Shown: positions 205 through 8,573 of the stretch, piece by piece | Layout: each line of letters starts with the position of its first letter | Numbering within the stretch: the stretch's first letter is position 1 | NCBI GenBank assembly: GCA_963793305.1 | Contig: CAWBZV010000002.1 | Coordinates: 64,001 to 128,000 of the forward strand | DNA from: an uncultured Gemmatimonadales bacterium | Lineage (GTDB): Bacteria > Gemmatimonadota > Gemmatimonadetes > Gemmatimonadales > Gemmatimonadaceae | Length of the DNA: 64,000 nt | Direction: 5' to 3' | The notes under the pieces: model-generated | Told to the model about the DNA's origin: nothing | Database searches by the model: none | Seen by the model: the letters and a program-made list of their open reading frames with translations, nothing else | Translations under genes and position numbers: made by a program

Positions 205-411
205 CTACTTCATCTTGACGAGAAGTAGCCCGGGATCGACACCGAGCGCGACGGAGAGTCGATCGAGCACCTTCGCCGAGAACATCGCGACGCGTCCGTT
301 CTCGTAGCGGGAAATGGTTGTCACGGAGACGCGGCTTTCACTGGCGAGCTCCTGTTGCGTCCAGCGCCGCGCTTCGCGGAGCAACTTGACCCGGGTGGCG
401 AGATAGGACAT
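205..411 (-). CDS. XRE-family helix-turn-helix transcriptional regulator
   Basis: 68 aa; LREARRWTQQELA...TISRYENG...LSVALGV is a classic HTH_3 pattern; divergent from the cytochrome operon. Confidence 0.9.
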   Translation of the reverse strand: MSYLATRVKLLREARRWTQQELASESRVSVTTISRYENGRVAMFSAKVLDRLSVALGVDPGLLLVKMK

Positions 412-506
412 GGGTGCATCCTGCGCTCCGTGCAGCGCCTGCCCAAGGGATCTGGGGTGAATGACACGCTGCGCGGGGTCAAAACTGGTGCCCGCGAAGC
501 CAATGC

Positions 507-520
507 TGCCAGTAGTGGCA
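507..520. promoter_or_regulatory. Palindromic operator-like site, copy 1 (TGCCA-GTAG-TGGCA)
   Basis: Inverted repeat with the same core as 677-698. Confidence 0.55.
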
Positions 521-577
521 ACACGCCGGAAGCGCTAATACATGGATGTGATATGTCGGCGCGTGCCCTTCGGGCTA

Positions 578-597
578 CGCTAACTGCGCAGTTAGCG
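578..597. promoter_or_regulatory. Perfect 20-bp palindrome CGCTAACTGCGCAGTTAGCG
   Basis: Read directly in the XRE/cyc2 intergenic region; function unknown. Confidence 0.45.
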
Positions 598-676
598 AAC
601 AGCCTGCTGTGTAATGGCTTGCGAGCCAACAATACCAAGTGACCCGTCGAGCGACCTCGGCCGTCTAAGCCATTTG

Positions 677-698
677 CACTTGCCAATAGTGGCAAGTG
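677..698. promoter_or_regulatory. Palindromic operator-like site, copy 2 (CACTTGCCA-ATAG-TGGCAAGTG)
   Basis: Perfect 9-bp arms, 70 nt upstream of the cyc2-like start codon. Confidence 0.6.
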
Positions 699-768
699 TG
701 ACTATCCATCCCGCCGCTTGCACAGCTGATCTGACCGTCCGGCTTCACACGCACCCGGAGGCATCAGG

Positions 769-2176
769 ATGCTTTTGACTACGGGGATCCTCGGCGCGAT
801 CCTCACGGCCAATGTGGCCACGGGTACGACCGCGTTCCGCGCGTACACGGCCTCGCTGAACGCCAAGGCCCATGCGAGCAAGGTGATTCCCGCGTTTGCC
901 CGCAAGTACGGCCTCCGATGTTCGGCCTGTCACACCGCGTGGCCCGAGCTCAATGCCTTCGGGCAGGCGTTCCGCGACAACGGCTACCAGCTCGGCAACG
1001 ATCGCGACTCGCCGATTTTCAAGGACGCGAGCTATTTGCCGATCGCGCTGCGCATCACGCCGCAGTGGCACGAGGAGAGCACGACGAATCAAACCGTCGA
1101 CGCCGTGCCGGGCGACTCGTCGGTCAAAGTCGCGCGTCGCCTCACCACGCACGGGTTCGACCTCTCGGGCATGGACTTCTGGACCGCCGGCACGCTGTAC
1201 AAGAACATTCTCGTTCGTCCTGCTCTTCTCATCCGACCCGTTCGCGTCGTTCCACTTCGAATCCGCGTTCATCCGGTTCGACAACCTCGCGAACAGTCCG
1301 TGGCTCAACGTGAAGTTCGGAAAGTTCGAGCTGGACAACTTGATCTCCGAAAAACGGTTCCTGTTCCTGTCCGCCAACGGCGGCGTCTACCAGAGCTACC
1401 ATTTCGTTCCCGTCGGCGACAACACCGGGTTCGGTATCGGCGACAACCAGCTGGGCGTCGAGCTCGCGGGCCACAGCAAGAACAGCTATACCCGGTACAG
1501 CGCCTCGCTGCTGTCGTCGGTCGACGGCACACCGGGCACGCCGACCGGCAATAGCTACGACGCATTTTTCGCGGTCAGCCAAGGGTTCCAAGCCGGCGCA
1601 CTCGGGGTCGAGCGCATCGGCGCCTACTGGTACCTCGGGCAGCAGTCCTCGTTGTACCGGACATTGGGCGGGGCGCCGATCGCGGGCAGCGGGGTCGACA
1701 ACAAGACCTTCTATCGCGCCGGCCTCTCCGGCGATCTCTACGCCGGTCCGATCGAGTTCATGCCGTTCTACATGCACGGGCGCGACGATCCGTACCTCGG
1801 CACGAGCACGCCGGGGAATCAGGCGCTGCCGACCGGTGCCATCGGTCCGCAGTGGAACGCCGAGTTTCTCGAGACGCACGAGTACATGAATTCGCGCTTT
1901 GTGCTGCTGCAGCGGGCCGAGTTCGTGCGAATGTCCCAACAGGCGCTGCCGGGCACGCCGAGCACGCTGGGTGACATTGACGCCTACTCGTTCGGCGGCC
2001 GGTGGATGCCGTTCATGTTCAGCCGCGCGGGACTCGCGTTCCACGCGGAGTACTCGCTCACCCGAACCGTCGGCAACGTCCCGATCAGCGCCGATGGCGT
2101 GGGGCTTCCGCCGCTCAATCCAACGGCGAGCGTCTGGAGCAGCAGCTTGCTGTTCGCCTTCGACTTCGCCTTCTGA
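769..2176 (+). CDS. cyc2: Cyc2-like monoheme cytochrome c-porin fusion (one +1 frameshift near 1208)
   Basis: Signal peptide, then PAFARKYGLRCSACHTAWPELNAFGQAFRDNGY (PxFAR[Q/K][T/Y] plus CxxCH, the Cyc2 signature); joining ORFs 769..1554 and 896..2176 gives about 468 aa with amphipathic beta-strands ending in LFAFDFAF. Confidence 0.78.
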
Positions 2177-2185
2177 GGAGCCGAC

Positions 2186-2992
2186 ATGAGACTCGTATAT
2201 ATCGGTCTGCTCGTCTCGGCGGTCGCCGCCACCAGCGCGACGCAGGCGCAACCGTCGATCCTCGGCGGTACGCGAGAAGATTTTCGGCGGTACTGCGCCG
2301 GATGCCACGGCAATGCCGGCGATGGCCAGGGCGAGAACGCGGACTGGATCGACCCCAAGCCCCGCGACTTCACGCTGGCCACGTTCAAGTGCCGGTCGAC
2401 GCCGAGCGGCACGCTGCCGACCGACGACGATCTGTACAACACCGTGCGGCGCGGGCTCGTGAACTCGAACATGCCGTCGTGGCGGCCGCTGGCCGACGAT
2501 CAGATCCACCAGCTCGTCGAGTACATCAAGACGTTCTCGCCGCGGTGGAAGACGGAGAAGCCGGGAACGCCGATCACGGTACCGCCCGAGATTCCGGTGA
2601 CCGCGGACGACATTCTCGCCGGGCGCGCGCTCTTCCAGAAAATGGAATGCTGGAAGTGCCACGGTCCCGAAGGGCGTGGGAATGGCCCATTGGCATTGAC
2701 GCTCACCGACAGCAAGGATCAGCCGATCAAGCCGTTCAACTTCGCGGCCAGCTCGCGGTTCAAGTGCGGCACGACGAATCACGATCTCTACAAGATCTTC
2801 CTGACCGGGCTCGATGGGACGCCCATGCCGTCGTTCGCCGACAACTTCCATGGCGACGATGCCTGGCACCTCGTGCATTTCCTGCGGACGCTGCAGCAGG
2901 CCGAGTCGCCCGAGAAGGTGGTGTGGGAGCAATGGACGAGCACGCACCAAGGACAGTTGAAGCCAATCGGACCCGATGGGGGCGGACAATGA
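2186..2992 (+). CDS. Periplasmic diheme cytochrome c
   Basis: Signal peptide; CAGCH and CWKCH each followed by PxPxxF and MPSW/MPSF distal Met; GAGGAG RBS. Confidence 0.9.
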   Translation: MRLVYIGLLVSAVAATSATQAQPSILGGTREDFRRYCAGCHGNAGDGQGENADWIDPKPRDFTLATFKCRSTPSGTLPTDDDLYNTVRRGLVNSNMPSWRPLADDQIHQLVEYIKTFSPRWKTEKPGTPITVPPEIPVTADDILAGRALFQKMECWKCHGPEGRGNGPLALTLTDSKDQPIKPFNFAASSRFKCGTTNHDLYKIFLTGLDGTPMPSFADNFHGDDAWHLVHFLRTLQQAESPEKVVWEQWTSTHQGQLKPIGPDGGGQ

Positions 2993-3702
2993 CACGGACG
3001 ATCGCTGCACTTGGTGCAGTGCTTATCGGCACGACCGCGTGGGCGCCATCGGCGCCACGCGCCACGCTCGCAGGCTCAGTGACCGGGACGATCACGTTCA
3101 CCGGCACGCCGCCCAAAATGAAGCCGATCGACATGGCGAAGGAGCCTTCCTGCGCCAAGCAACATGCGACGCCAATCGAGACCGAGACGGTCGTCACGGG
3201 CCCGAACAACGCGCTGCAGTACGTCGTGGTCTACGTGTCGGCCGGCGATCAGGGATCAGAGACCCCGACGACGCCCGTGCATCTCGAGCAGAAGGGCTGC
3301 CAGTACATCCCGCACGTGGTCGTGCTGCACGCGGGCCAGTCGCTCGAAATCGCGAACGACGATCAGACCTCGCACAACATCGATCCGCTGCCGACGAAAA
3401 ACCCGGAGTGGAACAAGTCCCAGCCACCCGGATCGCCACCGATCGTCACCAAGTACGACAACCCGGACTTCATCCCGGTCAAGTGCAATGTCCATCCCTG
3501 GATGCACGGCTATCACATCGTGCTCGCCACGTCCCATTTCGGCGTCTCCGGCAATGACGGGACGTACACGATTACGGGACTTCCCCCGGGGAAGTACACG
3601 CTCACCGCGTGGCACGAGAAGTTCGGCACGATGACGCAGGACGTGACCGTGGGTGCACAACCAACCAAGGCCGACTTCCAGTTTAAAGCCACGCCGTACT
3701 GA
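2989..3702 (+). CDS. Secreted cupredoxin-like protein with carboxypeptidase-regulatory-like domain
   Basis: ATGA overlap; signal peptide; SHNI...KCNVHPWM (His-Cys-His-Met copper ligand set); C-terminal GTYTITGLPPGKYTLTAWHE. Confidence 0.8.
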   Translation: MTRTIAALGAVLIGTTAWAPSAPRATLAGSVTGTITFTGTPPKMKPIDMAKEPSCAKQHATPIETETVVTGPNNALQYVVVYVSAGDQGSETPTTPVHLEQKGCQYIPHVVVLHAGQSLEIANDDQTSHNIDPLPTKNPEWNKSQPPGSPPIVTKYDNPDFIPVKCNVHPWMHGYHIVLATSHFGVSGNDGTYTITGLPPGKYTLTAWHEKFGTMTQDVTVGAQPTKADFQFKATPY

Positions 3703-3704
3703 CC

Positions 3705-4508
3705 ATGGCCAAACTGTTCGCAGTCTTGGTCGCGGTCATCACGATCGTCTCGACGGGGATCTTCGTCGCGCGTACGTGGTGGCTCCCGCCCGACATCTCG
3801 GTGGTCGGCCCATTGATCGATAGTCAGTTGATGGAAACGATGGTCGCCGCGGGCGTGCTGTTCGTGGTCTCGCAGCTGTCGCTGGCGCTGTTCGTCTGGC
3901 GGGTCTCGGACGAGAAGAAGGAGCGGCCGCTCAGGCGATTTCCCGGTGGCGCGACGCCGTTGGTCGTCTTGGCGACGGCGCTGGTCGGCATCGAGGTCCT
4001 GACCCTGTCATTGGTGGGATCGAAGATCTGGTACAACACATTTCTTGCGCCCGCCCCCGCGAATGCGCTCAAGGTCGACGTTCAAGCAGGACAGTTCGCG
4101 TTCTATTTCCGGTATCCCGGGCCCGACGGCACGTTCGGCACGCCGCATCCGGACAAGATCGATGAGGGCGGGGGCAACTTCTTCGGGCTCGATCCGGCGA
4201 ATGACATCGACGCGCGAGATGACATCGTCACCGCGGAGCTCGCCGTTCCGGTCAATCGGCCGGTCCTGCTGACCATGCATGCCAAAAACGTCATTCATTC
4301 GTTCTACGTCCCCGAGCTGAGACTGCAGCAGGACTTCGTGCCGGGTCTCGTGATTCCGCTGCACTTCACGGCGACGCAGGTCGCGAAGACCGAAATCGTG
4401 TGCACGCAGCTGTGTGGGCTCGGGCACTATAACATGAAGACCTACCTCGAGGTCATGTCGCAAGCCGACTTCGACAAGTGGCTCAAGGACCAGGCGGCAG
4501 CGCAATGA
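3705..4508 (+). CDS. coxB: Cytochrome c oxidase subunit II (CuA)
   Basis: N-terminal TM helices; VIHSFYVP and CTQLCGLGHYNM CuA motif. Confidence 0.93.
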   Translation: MAKLFAVLVAVITIVSTGIFVARTWWLPPDISVVGPLIDSQLMETMVAAGVLFVVSQLSLALFVWRVSDEKKERPLRRFPGGATPLVVLATALVGIEVLTLSLVGSKIWYNTFLAPAPANALKVDVQAGQFAFYFRYPGPDGTFGTPHPDKIDEGGGNFFGLDPANDIDARDDIVTAELAVPVNRPVLLTMHAKNVIHSFYVPELRLQQDFVPGLVIPLHFTATQVAKTEIVCTQLCGLGHYNMKTYLEVMSQADFDKWLKDQAAAQ

Positions 4509-6241
4509 CGACGGTCTCGACACCACCAACGGTCGCGCACCACCACGGCCCGCCAACGACGTTCATCAGTAAGTACGTCTTTTCGACGGATCACAAGGTC
4601 ATCGGCAAGCAGTACCTGGGCCTGGCGCTCGTCGCGGTCACCACGGGGATGGTGCTCTCGTGGTATATGCGGTTTCATTTGGCATTCCCGGACGCCAAAG
4701 CGCCGGGGCTCGGCACGATCACGCCCGAGCAGTATCTGCAACTCATGACGATGCACGGCACGATCATGGTGTTTTTCGTGCTGACGACGGCGCCATTCGC
4801 GGGCTTCGGGAATTTCTTCCTGCCGCTGCACGTCGGCGCGGAAGACATGCCGTTCCCGCACTTCAACATGATGTCGTTCTGGGTCACGCTCACGGCGTTC
4901 CTCGTGCTCGTGGCCTCGTTCGTGGTCCCCGAAGGGCCGGCGCTCGCGGGATGGACGGCCTATGCGCCGTTGAGCGCGGTCGGGAGCGGATCCGGCCCGG
5001 GCGAAGGCCTCGGCCAGACGCTGTGGGCGATCTCGATCTTCATCTTCTGCATCGGGCAGCTGCTCGGCGCACTCAACTTCATCTGCACCGTGCTGGACAT
5101 GCGGACGAAGGGGTTGTCGCTCGCGCGCTTGCCGTACGTCACGTGGGCGTGGTTCATCACCTCGGTGATCGGGCTCATCGCGTTCTCCGTCCTGAGCTCG
5201 GCGTGTGTCCTGTTGATCCTGGATCGCGTGGCGGGCACCAGCTTCTTCATCCCGGCCGGCCTCGTGGTGAATGATCGCGTGCTCACCACCCATGCCGGTG
5301 GCTCGCCGCTCCTCTGGCAGCATCTCTTCTGGTTCTTCGGACACCCCGAAGTCTATATCGCGATCCTGCCGGGCTTCGGCATCATCTCGACGATTCTGCC
5401 GGCGTGCGCCCGGAAGCCGCTGCTCGGCCCACGGGTGATGATCGGGTGCATGGCCGCCATCGGGTTCTTGAGCTACACCGTGTGGGGCCATCACATGTTC
5501 TTGAGTGGGATGAACCCGACGTCGGCGATGGGGTTCTCCGTCCCGACGCTGATCATCACCATTCCGGCGACGATCGCGACGTTGCTGTGGCTTGGGACGC
5601 TCTATGGGTCCAAGTACCGGTTCACCACGGCGGGGCTGTTTTGTCTGGGATTCATCTCCGTGTTCATCACCGGCGGATTGAGCGGATTCTTTCTGGCGCA
5701 GCCGTCGATCGACACGTATCTCCACGCGACGTATTTCGTGGTCGCGCATTTCCACTTCGTCATGGCGGTCGCGGCGATATTCGGCATCTTCGCCGGCACG
5801 TACTTCTGGTTCCCGAAGATGTTCGGCCGCATGATGAACGAGACGCTCGGCAAGTGGCACTTCGCCTTGACGTTCATCGGCGTCTACGCCGTGTTCATGC
5901 CGATGCACTACCTCGGCTTGGCCGGCAACGTCAGACGCTATTCGTCGTTCCCCGCCGAGTACATGAGCCAGGCGCTGCCGCTGCACAAGTGGATCACGAT
6001 CGCCGCGCTGTTCACCGGCGCGGTGCAGCTCATCTTCCTCTACAACCTGATTCGGAGCCGGTTCGCCGGGGAGAAGGCTCCGGACAACCCGTGGGACGCC
6101 ACGAGCCTGGAGTGGTCGACGGAGTCTCCGCCGCCGTTTGACAATTTCGGCGGACGCCATCTCGTGGTGTCCCACGGGCCCGACGAGTATGGGGTCCAGA
6201 GTCCGCGCGGCGACTACGTCATGCAAACGGATCCGCCATGA
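4505..6241 (+). CDS. coxA: Cytochrome c oxidase subunit I, A1-type
   Basis: STDHKVIG, MHGTIM, WFFGHPEVY, VWGHHMF, VAHFHFV, VRRY motifs; ATGA overlap with coxB. Confidence 0.96.
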   Translation: MTTVSTPPTVAHHHGPPTTFISKYVFSTDHKVIGKQYLGLALVAVTTGMVLSWYMRFHLAFPDAKAPGLGTITPEQYLQLMTMHGTIMVFFVLTTAPFAGFGNFFLPLHVGAEDMPFPHFNMMSFWVTLTAFLVLVASFVVPEGPALAGWTAYAPLSAVGSGSGPGEGLGQTLWAISIFIFCIGQLLGALNFICTVLDMRTKGLSLARLPYVTWAWFITSVIGLIAFSVLSSACVLLILDRVAGTSFFIPAGLVVNDRVLTTHAGGSPLLWQHLFWFFGHPEVYIAILPGFGIISTILPACARKPLLGPRVMIGCMAAIGFLSYTVWGHHMFLSGMNPTSAMGFSVPTLIITIPATIATLLWLGTLYGSKYRFTTAGLFCLGFISVFITGGLSGFFLAQPSIDTYLHATYFVVAHFHFVMAVAAIFGIFAGTYFWFPKMFGRMMNETLGKWHFALTFIGVYAVFMPMHYLGLAGNVRRYSSFPAEYMSQALPLHKWITIAALFTGAVQLIFLYNLIRSRFAGEKAPDNPWDATSLEWSTESPPPFDNFGGRHLVVSHGPDEYGVQSPRGDYVMQTDPP

Positions 6242-6801
6242 CCCCCAAGGTCGGGTCGCCGCCCAGCGCGGCGCGCACCGGCGTGTGGGTCGGCATGGGC
6301 GCGATCGCCATGGTGTTCGCCGCCTATACGAGCGCGATGATGGTCCGGCGTGAAGGGGCGCCAGACTGGCATCACTTCCAACTGCCGTCGATTCTCTACG
6401 TCAATACGGTGATCTTGCTCGCCTCGAGCGTGGCGCTCGAAGCCGGTCGCCGCCGTATTGGCGATGATTACGAGGTGGGACGCGCTGCGCGCGCCTATCT
6501 GTCCCTGGCGCTCTTGCTCGGGGTCGCCTTCCTGGTGGGACAGGTCATCGCGTGGCGCGATTTGGCGGGGCAGGGACTCTTCCTGGCGACAAATCCAGCG
6601 AGCTCTTTCTTCTACGTGTTCACGGCGGCCCACGGGCTCCACCTCATTGGGGGCCTCGTCGCGCTGGCGTACGTGCTGCGGCGCGTACGCCTCGCGATCG
6701 GTCCTGGCACGTACGGCGCGCTCGGTGCGGTCGCGCTGTACTGGCACTTCATGGACGTGCTGTGGCTCTATCTCCTGGGGGTCTTGGCCGTATGGCTATG
6801 A
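6238..6801 (+). CDS. coxC: Heme-copper oxidase subunit III (short form, copy a)
   Basis: NTVILLASS, FFYVFTAAHGLHLIGG, LYWHFMDVLW. Confidence 0.9.
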   Translation: MTPKVGSPPSAARTGVWVGMGAIAMVFAAYTSAMMVRREGAPDWHHFQLPSILYVNTVILLASSVALEAGRRRIGDDYEVGRAARAYLSLALLLGVAFLVGQVIAWRDLAGQGLFLATNPASSFFYVFTAAHGLHLIGGLVALAYVLRRVRLAIGPGTYGALGAVALYWHFMDVLWLYLLGVLAVWL

Positions 6802-7388
6802 CGATGGAAGCGACGCCGTTCGGAATGCCGAGCCGGAAGTTCGCGATGTGGCTGTTCATCATCGCGGACGCGGCCACGTTCGCGGCGATTCTCTTTGCCT
6901 ACGGGTATGTGCGGTTCGCGAGTCCGAACTGGACCCGCCCCTTCGAGTTCTGGCCGACGATCGCCAACGGCCTCCTGATGACGGTCGTGCTGCTGACGAG
7001 CAGCTTCACCATGGTCGCCGCGACCGTCACGGCGCGCGACGGGAAACAGTCGCGGGCGTTGCAATGGCTGGCGGCCACGATCGTGCTCGGCACCGTGTTC
7101 GCGGTGCTGCATGTCACCGAGTGGGTCACGATGTTTCACGAAGGATGGTCGACCGCCACCAACCCGCTCGGTGGGTCGACGCTCGTCGGCGGCACGTTCT
7201 TTATCATCACGGGTCTGAGCCTGCTCCACGTGGTCGCGGGCGTCATTGCGCTCGTCGTCATCGCTGGCGGCTACCGGCGCGGACGCTGGGACGCCAGCTA
7301 CATCGAGACGACTGGCCTCTACTGGCAATTCGTGGACGTGGTCTGGATGTTCGTGTTCCCACTCGTCTACCTCCTCAACGCCAAATGA
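6798..7388 (+). CDS. coxC: Heme-copper oxidase subunit III (short form, copy b)
   Basis: KFAMWLFIIADAATF, FFIITG, GLYWQFVDVVWMFVFPLVYL; ATGA overlap. Confidence 0.9.
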   Translation: MTMEATPFGMPSRKFAMWLFIIADAATFAAILFAYGYVRFASPNWTRPFEFWPTIANGLLMTVVLLTSSFTMVAATVTARDGKQSRALQWLAATIVLGTVFAVLHVTEWVTMFHEGWSTATNPLGGSTLVGGTFFIITGLSLLHVVAGVIALVVIAGGYRRGRWDASYIETTGLYWQFVDVVWMFVFPLVYLLNAK

Positions 7389-7660
7389 GACTCTACCTGA
7401 TGGCCTGGATCGGCGCGATGCTCATCGTCGCGATCGAGGCGTGGCTCGCGTACGCGCACATGTCAATGGTCGTGCTGATGGCGTCGTTTCTGTTGCTGGC
7501 GATCGTCGAGTCGGCCATCGCGCTCCGGTACTTCATGAACCTCAAGTACGAGCCGCCGGGGCTCTTTTGGACCCTGATCCCGGGGTTCGTGTTCGCGCTG
7601 CTCATGCTGAACCACATCTGGCCCGACGCCGTCCGGGTGACCGCGCTCAGGTTCCCATGA
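7385..7660 (+). CDS. Cytochrome c oxidase subunit IV (prokaryotic COX4 type)
   Basis: 91 aa, three TM segments, YFMNLKYE motif; ATGA overlap. Confidence 0.8.
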   Translation: MRLYLMAWIGAMLIVAIEAWLAYAHMSMVVLMASFLLLAIVESAIALRYFMNLKYEPPGLFWTLIPGFVFALLMLNHIWPDAVRVTALRFP

Positions 7661-7755
7661 TCCACACGATGGTGCGAGCGATGTGGATCATGATGGTCCC
7701 TGCGTTCTGTCTCTGCACGCTCGTCACGATCCTCGCGATTCGCAAACGCCACTGA
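7657..7755 (+). CDS. Small single-TM protein at the end of the cox operon
   Basis: 32 aa MIHTMVRAMWIMMVPAFCLCTLVTILAIRKRH; ATGA-coupled to subunit IV. Confidence 0.4.
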   Translation: MIHTMVRAMWIMMVPAFCLCTLVTILAIRKRH

Positions 7756-7775: not shown

Positions 7776-8573
7776 ATGCTGCCCCATCTCGTGCTGGCCC
7801 TGCAGGTGGTCGCGCTCTGGCCGAACGGAGCGCCCGGATTTGAGCGCCTGAAGAATGAGCCGGAGCTCGCCCGCGATTACTGGGTCCGGCACATCAACAA
7901 TCCGTCGATCACCGTCTACTTGCCGCCGAAGGACAAAGCGACAGGCGCGGCGGTCGTCATCTGTCCGGGCGGCGGATTTCGCGAGCTCGTGTTTCAGGCC
8001 GAGGGGAATGACCCCGCGCGGTTCTTCAACACGCTCGGCATCGCTGCGTTCGTCCTGAAATACCGCCTCCCGCAGGAAGAAGGCTCACCCTACTCGCTCG
8101 ACAACGTGCGCCAGGACGGCATGCGCGCGATGCGCCTCGTTCGTTCCCGTGCGGCCGTGTGGGGAGTTGATCCGCATAAAATCGGGCTGATGGGCTTCTC
8201 GGCCGGTGGCAGCGTCGCATTGCTCGTCACGTTCACGCCAAACGCTGGCGATGCCACGGCGAGCGATCCCATAGAGCAGGCCAGTGCCCGGCCGGATTTC
8301 CTGATCATGATCTACCCCGGACCGCTCGGCATTCCGGACTCGCTTCCGCCGACCGCGCCACCGGCGTTTTTGCTCGCCGCCGACGATGATCCGTGCTGCT
8401 CGGAATCGACCGTCAACTTGCTGCGCCTCTATCGGGCCGCGAAGATCCCGGTCGAGGCCCATCTCTTCGTCCGCGGCGGGCACGGGTTCAACATGGGCTA
8501 TCGCTCGTCGCTGGCCACGATCAAGGGATGGCCGCAACGCCTCGCGGATTGGCTGGCGGACAACTCGCTCTGA
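7776..8573 (+). CDS. Alpha/beta hydrolase (acetyl-esterase-like)
   Basis: CPGGGF, GFSAGG nucleophile elbow, GGHGF catalytic His. Confidence 0.88.
   Translation: MLPHLVLALQVVALWPNGAPGFERLKNEPELARDYWVRHINNPSITVYLPPKDKATGAAVVICPGGGFRELVFQAEGNDPARFFNTLGIAAFVLKYRLPQEEGSPYSLDNVRQDGMRAMRLVRSRAAVWGVDPHKIGLMGFSAGGSVALLVTFTPNAGDATASDPIEQASARPDFLIMIYPGPLGIPDSLPPTAPPAFLLAADDDPCCSESTVNLLRLYRAAKIPVEAHLFVRGGHGFNMGYRSSLATIKGWPQRLADWLADNSL

What the first reader, a model, noticed from the sequence alone, without database searches (positions are those of the whole stretch)
769..7755. rus-operon-like surface-to-O2 electron uptake module (Cyc2-like porin-cytochrome, diheme cyt c, cupredoxin, cox) in a probable Gemmatimonadota genome
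Seen: eight genes plus a small ORF, joined by ATGA overlaps or gaps under 10 nt, encode an outer-membrane monoheme cytochrome-porin, a periplasmic diheme cytochrome c, a His-Cys-His-Met copper protein and oxidase subunits II, I, IIIa, IIIb, IV. Established: the Acidithiobacillus ferrooxidans Fe(II)-oxidation rus operon runs cyc2-cyc1-cup(acoP)-coxBACD-rus, and several Cyc2 proteins are demonstrated iron oxidases. Inference: this is a self-contained chain taking electrons from an extracellular donor (Fe(II), Mn(II) or reduced humics) to O2, in a lineage I know mainly as heterotrophic. The diheme and copper proteins look analogous to, not orthologous with, Cyc1 and AcoP, so the assembly may be convergent. 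Not all Cyc2 homologues are proven Fe oxidases.
Basis: partly seen in the sequence, partly recalled or inferred. Interest (0 to 1): 0.9.

Follow-up and report, generated by a model that had tools for sequence, protein, structure and literature searches.

The report
Soil-bacterial Cyc2-to-oxygen respiratory operon
A common group of soil bacteria carries a tightly packed gene set that likely passes electrons from a dissolved substance outside the cell, most plausibly ferrous iron, to oxygen; a 2020 preprint noted such clusters, but their parts look independently assembled and their oxidase lacks a normally conserved proton-channel lysine.

Summary
Eight genes plus a conserved 32-residue ORF encode a Cyc2-family cytochrome-porin, a diheme cytochrome c, a type-1 copper protein and an A1 heme-copper oxidase (II, I, IIIa, IIIb, IV) in a Gemmatimonadota genome. 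The frameshift is one extra base, absent from the best-matching public contigs: most likely an assembly error. In 301 genomes of the phylum, the same 28 carry both this Cyc2 and this oxidase; the operon also occurs in Acidobacteriota. It works like the Acidithiobacillus rus operon but is not a member: the Cyc2 is closer to Leptospirillum Cyt572 (cluster-3-like), the diheme to anammox Kustc0457, and the oxidase sits among CoxMNOP-like A1 enzymes. All 95 distinct Cyc2-linked subunits I lack the K-channel lysine, which 16 of 16 closest unlinked relatives keep. Acidithiobacillus reportedly lacks it too, suggesting convergence. Best reading: extracellular electron uptake to O2 as supplementary energy; the donor is untested. 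A 2020 bioRxiv preprint reported rus-like clusters in Gemmatimonadetes, and this scan found the operon before in another genome.

The parts
769..2176 (+). Cyc2-family monoheme cytochrome-porin (468 aa in the intact relative P0001), cluster-3/Cyt572-like. One extra base at 1207-1208 breaks the frame in this assembly.
   Evidence: Motif; intact homologue 93% identical over the C-terminal part; barrel model pLDDT 82.5, pTM 0.81, matching OprP/OprO/Omp38 porins; 382 aligned columns to Cyt572; extra base absent from contigs of 3 of 4 runs
2186..2992 (+). Periplasmic diheme cytochrome c with a candidate axial Met for each heme (M96, M214), Kustc0457-like
   Evidence: Pfam; PDB 6H5L_B, E 1.3e-57; both CxxCH and both Met kept in 102 of 105 homologues; both halves also match the monoheme cytochrome downstream of Cyt572, best E 3e-8
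2989..3702 (+). Type-1 copper protein: a cupredoxin domain (H129, C166, H169, M172) inserted in a split transthyretin-like sandwich, with a likely C55-C104 disulfide
   Evidence: Ligands kept in 104 of 104 homologues and the Cys pair in 102 of 104; model pLDDT 95.3; plastocyanin Z 10.4, rmsd 1.6, 85 aligned; carboxypeptidase D domain Z 11.7, rmsd 1.8, 79 aligned
3705..4508 (+). Oxidase subunit II with a CuA site (CTQLCGLGHYNM; Gln in place of the usual Glu)
4505..6241 (+). Oxidase subunit I, type A1 (GHPEVY). Metal His ligands, the Tyr and the D-channel residues are kept; K-channel Lys and Thr are both Ala (A358, A355) and the Mg-site Asp is Ala (A408).
   Evidence: Alignment to solved structures; residue tallies
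6238..6801 (+). Oxidase subunit IIIa (split subunit III, CoxMNOP-like)
   Evidence: same layout in annotated plasmid operons
6798..7388 (+). Oxidase subunit IIIb
7385..7660 (+). Oxidase subunit IV
   Evidence: Pfam COX4_pro
7657..7755 (+). Conserved 32-aa hydrophobic ORF, likely a small membrane subunit
   Evidence: tblastn homologues at the same place in 3 of 7 relatives and 7 of 22 further loci
677..698 (.). 9-bp inverted repeat upstream of gene 1, a candidate operator
   Evidence: Read from the sequence; largely conserved in two same-genus genomes; no dyad stood out across 103 upstream regions
205..411 (-). Divergent Cro/C1-type HTH gene, a candidate local regulator
   Evidence: Pfam HTH_3; adjacent in G001 and G005 only, 2 of 7 relatives

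Best explanation
The operon likely encodes a dedicated chain that takes electrons from a small dissolved reductant outside the cell, most plausibly Fe(II), and passes them to oxygen. Inferred route: the heme of the outer-membrane Cyc2, then the diheme cytochrome, the type-1 copper protein, CuA, heme a and the a3-CuB site. With the K-channel lysine gone, protons would have to enter through the intact D-channel. No RuBisCO was found, and the genome has a separate ordinary caa3 oxidase, a bd oxidase and a likely alternative complex III, so the module would supply extra proton-motive force to a heterotroph. Shown: genes, cofactor ligands, predicted folds, linkage and residue losses. Inferred: direction, order of carriers and proton route. 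Untested: the donor. About 0.7 for uptake-to-O2 with any donor; 0.45 with Fe(II) as the main donor.
For: Cyc2 motif, length and predicted barrel. Full-length likeness to Cyt572, a verified iron oxidase per PMC7029218. The same 28 of 301 genomes hold both the close Cyc2 and the close CoxII, with none discordant; 66 of 80 named loci carry the oxidase downstream. In 2 loci the same three-gene front end leads into cbb3-type ccoN/ccoO-like genes instead, so it pairs with two different oxidase types. All redox ligands are conserved. Cyc2-diheme complex prediction gave weak support: score 0.52, best control 0.00, at least 23% of contacts agreeing, partner pLDDT at least 78; only 18 of 157 solved complexes and both mismatches that passed scored in this band. 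Housekeeping caa3 with intact K; bd and NrfD hits. One soil RNA run holds contigs of relatives over genes 1-3 and IIIb-IV (weak, DNA carry-over not excluded).
Against: No biochemical or physiological test exists. Cluster-3 function is the least certain and Cyt572 may not represent it. Identity to Cyt572 is only about 28%. Nine of 75 loci with room downstream lack this oxidase, and 7 of these showed no adjacent oxidase. Cyc2 also occurs in Mn oxidizers and nitrifying Nitrospirales (PMC9040806). The heme domain is low-confidence in the model (residues 1-57 under pLDDT 50). No shared Fur-like or FNR motif upstream. Co-occurring genomes are kin, and the K-less clade has a single origin.
Confidence: 0.45

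Rival explanations
1. The same surface-to-O2 chain, but the main donor is not Fe(II): reduced humic quinones, Mn(II) or another dissolved reductant.
For: The best public holders are soil and peat runs (most shares are small). Cyc2 is a candidate in Mn(II) lithotrophs. Cluster-3 function is uncertain.
Against: All three characterised Cyc2 proteins oxidise Fe(II), and the monoheme plug is predicted to suit dissolved Fe2+. The Mn(II) couple (about +466 mV) leaves little driving force into a heme c (inference).
Confidence: 0.27
2. The oxidase is an alternative terminal oxidase fed from the quinol pool through the diheme and copper proteins, and Cyc2 exports or buffers electrons (for example to Fe(III) or humics) when O2 is short.
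For: A related diheme-plus-cupredoxin pair sits between a bd-like membrane cytochrome and an oxidase without Cyc2 in 2 genomes. In anammox bacteria a Kustc0457-plus-cupredoxin pair serves an HAO-like enzyme (PMC12053348). The genome encodes NrfD-type and cytochrome b complexes.
Against: No quinol-oxidising gene lies in the operon. Cyc2 and this oxidase co-occur strictly in 28 of 301 genomes. The genome has a separate 16/17/8-heme cluster better suited to export.
Confidence: 0.14
3. The K-less enzyme is not an energy-conserving oxidase but a slow O2 or peroxide sink, and the module removes Fe(II) and O2 at the surface to limit Fenton damage.
For: The K pathway delivers protons for the first two reduction steps (PMC8361435). 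Lys, Thr and the Mg-site Asp are lost together. That K362M is nearly inactive with O2 is recalled; only a cited title on inhibition by K362M was seen.
Against: The D-channel, the His-Tyr pair and all metal ligands are conserved at high identity across two phyla. Acidithiobacillus respires with an enzyme reported to lack the same Lys.
Confidence: 0.09
4. In this strain gene 1 is a true pseudogene and the operon is decaying.
For: The frame is broken in the assembly. One laid run did not show the missing base.
Against: Near-identical contigs lack the extra base. The other genes are intact and 96-100% identical to G001. A second lone +1 insertion hits an unrelated gene of the same assembly.
Confidence: 0.05

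Closest known systems
[quoted passage not shown]
   Same: Described as rus-operon variants with other cytochromes c, a duplicated COX3 and no CtaA in the cluster. Very probably this system.
   Different: The preprint infers transfer from ancestors of acidophilic iron oxidizers; the parts here point to separate origins. The text read does not mention Acidobacteria, the Cyc2 cluster or K-channel loss in these clusters.
Acidithiobacillus ferrooxidans rus operon (cyc2-cyc1-cup-coxBACD-rus-ctaT-ctaB-ctaA; PMC10654088, passages)
   Same: Order of functions: porin-cytochrome, diheme c, copper protein, cox II-I-III-IV. K-channel Lys and CuA Glu are reported lost there too.
   Different: Cluster-3-like rather than cluster-2 Cyc2; diheme not c4-like; copper protein 13% identical to AcoP with an extra domain; A1 rather than A2 oxidase; split subunit III; no rus, ctaA or ctaB in the operon; the subunit II K-entry Glu appears to be kept.
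Leptospirillum Cyt572-Cyt579 pair
   Same: FARKY-type Cyc2 alignable over 382 columns, followed by a cytochrome that matches both halves of gene 2.
   Different: About 28% identity; diheme instead of monoheme partner; copper protein and aa3-type oxidase in the same operon.
CoxMNOP-type alternative A1 oxidases (plasmid records annotated coxN/ctaD; stand-alone Acidobacteriota copies)
   Same: II-I-IIIa-IIIb-IV layout; 46-60% subunit I identity; the Cyc2-linked clade nests among the Acidobacteriota copies.
   Different: They keep the K-channel Lys and have no Cyc2 upstream.
Kuenenia Kustc0457 diheme (PDB 6H5L) with cupredoxin Kustc0456
   Same: Diheme homologous at E 1e-57, next to a type-1 copper gene.
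   Different: Serves an HAO-like enzyme in anammox; homology of gene 3 to Kustc0456 was not tested.

Membership tests
Cyc2 family | PXFAR[Q/K][T/Y] just upstream of a single CXXCH, and PXL downstream (bioRxiv 10.1101/228056) | tested here: met
   PAFARKYGLRCSACHTAWPEL; the consensus's leading Ala is Val here; 118 of 120 homologues have exactly one CxxCH
Cyc2 family | At least 365 aa with a C-terminal beta-barrel porin like OprO/OprP | tested here: met
   Intact relative is 468 aa; barrel model with Foldseek hits 2O4V (E 1.8e-11) and 4RJW
Cyc2 family | Cleavable signal peptide | tested here: inconclusive
   Hydrophobic N-terminus but no basic n-region; several homologues read A-x-A before IPAF; no predictor available
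Cyc2 family | Passes a FeGenie Cyc2 HMM | not testable with these tools
   HMMs not held; NCBIfam has no hit for P0001
Cyc2 family | Oxidises Fe(II) | not testable with these tools
   Needs an assay
Cyc2 cluster 3 | Groups with Leptospirillum Cyt572 rather than clusters 1 or 2 | tested here: inconclusive
   Closer to 4 Cyt572 sequences (HMM E 6e-29 to 2e-25; 382 columns) than to 2 FARQT-type plasmid proteins (E about 1e-17; 139 columns); no cluster-1 or Acidithiobacillus reference and no Cyc2 tree
rus operon | Order cyc2 - diheme c - copper protein - coxB - coxA - III - IV | tested here: met
rus operon | Cyc1 is a cytochrome c4 and Cup is AcoP | tested here: not met
   No c4 among 7 PDB hits, best is 6H5L_B; no AcoP sequence hit; AcoP only rank 47 by fold, 13% identity
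rus operon | rus, ctaB and ctaA within the operon | tested here: not met
   The operon ends at 7755 and an esterase follows; ctaA lies on another contig
rus operon | A2-type CoxA lacking the K-channel Lys | tested here: not met
   Lys is absent, but the motif is A1 (GHPEVY)
A1 heme-copper oxygen reductase | XGHPEVY, His ligands of the hemes and CuB, D-channel Asp/Asn/Glu, CuA site | tested here: met
   (five His positions tallied; the heme a His in MTMHG read from the alignment)
A1 heme-copper oxygen reductase | K-channel Lys and Thr | tested here: not met
   0 of 95 distinct Cyc2-linked subunits I have Lys: V39, I24, M13, A9, L8, T2
CoxMNOP-type oxidase | Two subunit III genes plus IV after II-I; nearest annotated relatives are coxN | tested here: met
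   linking the name CoxMNOP to this layout is partly recalled

The most novel reading that the evidence does not exclude
Soil Acidobacteriota and Gemmatimonadota independently built an iron-oxidising respiratory chain from a cluster-3 Cyc2, an anammox-type diheme, a new two-domain cupredoxin and a CoxMNOP oxidase. On being wired to Cyc2 that oxidase lost its K-channel, as the unrelated Acidithiobacillus enzyme did. K-channel loss would then be a repeated adaptation to electrons arriving from outside the cell, and these abundant 'heterotrophs' would be overlooked soil iron oxidizers.
Probability: 0.3. Interest if true: 0.82.

Novelty: new variant of a known kind. Interest (0 to 1): 0.58.

Why it matters
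About 9% of sampled Gemmatimonadota genomes (28 of 301) and about 2% of sampled Acidobacteriota genomes (4 of 250 besides the centre genome) carry the module. If it oxidises Fe(II) or humics, dominant soil heterotrophs gain energy from extracellular electrons, which affects soil iron and carbon budgets. It gives cluster-3 Cyc2, the least understood group, a complete and conserved context in which to test function. It also supplies a natural A1 oxidase without the K-channel lysine, with K-intact relatives at 55-60% identity: a direct comparison for asking what the K-channel is needed for.

Tried and rejected
No Pfam or NCBIfam family covers gene 1, and no solved structure matches by sequence. 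The ESM Atlas gave unnamed clusters, mostly Acidobacteriota, and one Porin_O_P lead at 20% of members. A true pseudogene was rejected. Descent of the whole operon from the rus operon was judged unlikely, but no Acidithiobacillus sequence was in my trees. 'K-loss marks Cyc2 linkage exclusively' was rejected: 3 Gemmatimonadota oxidases of another clade have Phe/Leu at these sites with no Cyc2 nearby. 'CuA Glu-to-Gln is specific to the module' was rejected: 5 K-intact relatives also have it. A shared upstream regulator motif was not found: FNR 2, CRP 1 and Fur-like 1 of 103, and the sigma-70 scan found no promoter. Autotrophy: RuBisCO was not found in a 92%-complete genome; other fixation routes were not searched. 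The first tree fell back to the quick method; both trees have SH-aLRT support only, and one search used 46 chosen rows. No cultured carrier was identified: all 80 named loci are MAGs. The Ralstonia plasmid hits were not examined. The look-up of earlier findings by sequence was blank.
Full report
OBSERVATION. Pfam and NCBIfam identify a diheme cytochrome c, oxidase subunits II, I, III (twice) and IV, and a protein with a carboxypeptidase-regulatory domain and a weak cupredoxin hit; gene 1 hits nothing. RecA identity places the host in Gemmatimonadota, probably Gemmatimonadaceae: 88% to a MAG of that family, 82-83% to two Gemmatimonadales MAGs and 65% to an Acidobacteriota MAG.

FRAMESHIFT. Gene 1 has one extra T at 1207-1208 relative to G001, G005 and G022. 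A database relative, P0001, is intact at 468 aa and 93% identical over the C-terminal part. Contigs from 3 of 4 laid runs lack the base. One spans 500-3918 with 6 substitutions and may be the source sample; two of the three share a study; the fourth run, at depth 2.2, did not show the deletion. The assembly has a second lone +1 insertion in a diheme paralogue on contig C5. An assembly error is the likeliest cause.

GENE 1 IS A CYC2. It carries the motif that bioRxiv 10.1101/228056 (passages read) calls defining, one CxxCH (118 of 120 listed homologues) and a terminal aromatic residue. AlphaFold2 of P0001 with 101 sequences gives a barrel (pLDDT 82.5, pTM 0.81; residues 1-57 under 50) whose best matches are Omp38, OprP and OprO. 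I retrieved Cyt572-type proteins using the N-terminal motif printed in PMC13741234 (passages). The family profile scores four of them at E 6e-29 to 2e-25 and aligns 382 columns at 28% identity. Two FARQT-type plasmid proteins score about 1e-17, and the one compared by profile aligns over 139 columns. So it is cluster-3-like; no formal tree was possible.

THE CARRIERS. Gene 2 matches PDB 6H5L chain B at E 1.3e-57; that this chain is Kuenenia Kustc0457 is recalled. PMC12053348 (passages) describes kustc0457 beside a type-1 cupredoxin gene. Both heme motifs and both candidate axial Met are kept in 102 of 105 homologues, and both halves match the monoheme protein downstream of Cyt572. Gene 3 keeps His/Cys/His/Met in 104 of 104 homologues. 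Its model (pLDDT 95.3) shows a plastocyanin-like domain inserted in a split transthyretin-like sandwich; AcoP ranks 47th at 13% identity. The Cyc2-diheme complex prediction gave weak support: score 0.52, best control 0.00, at least 23% contact agreement, partner pLDDT at least 78; only 18 of 157 solved complexes and both passing mismatches scored in that band.

THE OXIDASE. Subunit I is type A1, with metal ligands, the active-site Tyr and the D-channel intact, but Ala at the K-channel Lys and Thr and at the Mg-site Asp. K354 and D124 numbering is; the other Paracoccus numbers are recalled. Of 113 Cyc2-linked loci given, 95 distinct subunits I could be read at that site and none has Lys; the Mg Asp is Ala or Gly in 93 of 93 read. 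As controls, I fetched 16 of 22 intermediate Acidobacteriota oxidases (55-60% subunit I identity): all 16 keep Lys, 15 keep the Asp, and none has a Cyc2 or diheme hit upstream. Three plasmid CoxN-like enzymes, two Gemmatimonadota enzymes with diheme and cupredoxin but a bd-like cytochrome instead of Cyc2, and the genome's own caa3 also keep Lys. Against exclusivity, three enzymes of another clade lack Lys without Cyc2 nearby. In a quick 46-row tree the Cyc2-linked enzymes form one clade (SH-aLRT 100) inside K-intact Acidobacteriota enzymes (99), with Gemmatimonadota nested (100). This suggests one loss and a later transfer into Gemmatimonadota (direction inferred, midpoint root, no clade test).

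DISTRIBUTION. 3,633 proteins match gene 1's C-terminal part. The 80 best GTDB loci are 69 Acidobacteriota, 10 Gemmatimonadota and 1 unnamed, all MAGs. The diheme follows in 79 of 80 and this oxidase in 66 of 80; 5 loci are cut by contig ends, 2 have cbb3-type ccoN/ccoO-like genes after the same front end, and 7 showed no adjacent oxidase. In 301 genomes of the host phylum, 28 have a CoxII at 60% identity or more and the same 28 have the close Cyc2, one of them in fragments. Gene 1 lies upstream in 21 of 22 newly fetched loci, the other ending at a contig edge. In 251 Acidobacteriota genomes 5 have the close CoxII, including the centre genome, and the 4 new ones are Cyc2-linked. Kin are not independent. 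G012, flagged unpublished, enters only denominators.

GENOME CONTEXT. The host also has a caa3 oxidase, a bd oxidase, NrfD and cytochrome b hits, and ctaA elsewhere; RuBisCO was not found at 92% completeness. One soil RNA run has contigs of relatives over genes 1-3 and across IIIb-IV; contigs show neither strand nor level.

MECHANISM. Most likely electrons flow from an extracellular donor through Cyc2, the diheme, the copper protein, CuA and heme a to a3-CuB and O2, with protons entering by the D-channel, giving supplementary energy to a heterotroph. Parts and linkage are shown; direction, order and proton route are inferred; the donor is untested. I put 0.45 on Fe(II), 0.27 on another donor, 0.14 on export or quinol feeding, 0.09 on a non-conserving sink and 0.05 on a pseudogene.

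PRIOR ART. bioRxiv 10.1101/2020.03.01.968255 (passages and sections 7-8) reports rus-operon variants in Gemmatimonadetes MAGs with other cytochromes c and a duplicated COX3, and K-less A2 oxidases in acidophilic iron oxidizers. Its Fig. 1d and Table S1 were not seen and may list more. The journal version, PMC8239418, has no 'cyc2' in its main text. PMC11316326 mentions Cyc2 in marine Gemmatimonadota (passage). PMC7029218, PMC10654088, PMC9040806 and PMC8361435 were read as passages. Seven searches of the open-access library (listings only unless named above) showed no paper linking K-channel loss in an A1 oxidase to this module; subscription journals are not covered. This scan reported the same operon in another genome (e1-7105103); I had found the preprint before reading that note.

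VERDICT. A real, conserved module that works like the rus operon but is not a member of it, and already noted in outline. The new points are the separate origin of its parts, its spread in Acidobacteriota, the swap to cbb3 and the K-channel loss. New variant of a known kind; interest 0.58.

Noticed in passing
G000:C10:70899-88377 (L111): A FSRQT-type (cluster-2-like) Cyc2 beside a monoheme cytochrome, a multicopper oxidase, a NiFe hydrogenase, a 16/17/8-heme cytochrome cluster with a possible porin, and a cytochrome b: a second candidate extracellular electron transfer island.
   Followed up: partly
G000:C5:1282196-1284159 (L020): A third Cyc2 (FARKY-type, 416 aa, 29% to P0001) with a diheme partner but no oxidase nearby; also present in G001 and G005. 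The diheme has a lone +1 insertion in this assembly.
   Followed up: partly
L034:11422-15988 and L080:11363-15893: The same Cyc2-diheme-cupredoxin front end leading into ccoN-like and triheme ccoO-like genes, both below the NCBIfam cut-offs, in two Acidobacteriota.
   Followed up: partly
L136:978-11436 and L137:2-8977: Gemmatimonadota operon with radical SAM, bd-like cytochrome, c-type cytochromes, diheme, cupredoxin and a K-intact A1 oxidase: the same relay genes without Cyc2.
   Followed up: partly
L139-L141: A separate A1 oxidase clade in Gemmatimonadota with Phe/Leu at the K-channel Thr/Lys and no Cyc2 nearby.
   Followed up: no
window 677-698 and 205-411 (-): Inverted repeat upstream of gene 1, conserved in the genus, with a divergent HTH gene; a possible operator-regulator pair.
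   Followed up: partly
L069 and L097: Rearranged order cupredoxin-Cyc2-diheme followed by response-regulator-like genes; L069 also has a 28-heme cytochrome nearby.
   Followed up: no
L108:4857-8627 and L109:3927-6944: Plasmid-borne FARQT-type Cyc2: with three c-type cytochromes in Methylocystis sp. MJC1, and with a HiPIP and a cytochrome c in Caballeronia sp. SBC1; cultured hosts for Cyc2 tests.
   Followed up: no
window 7776-8573: Alpha/beta-hydrolase gene 20 nt after the operon, not found in the seven relatives' loci.
   Followed up: partly
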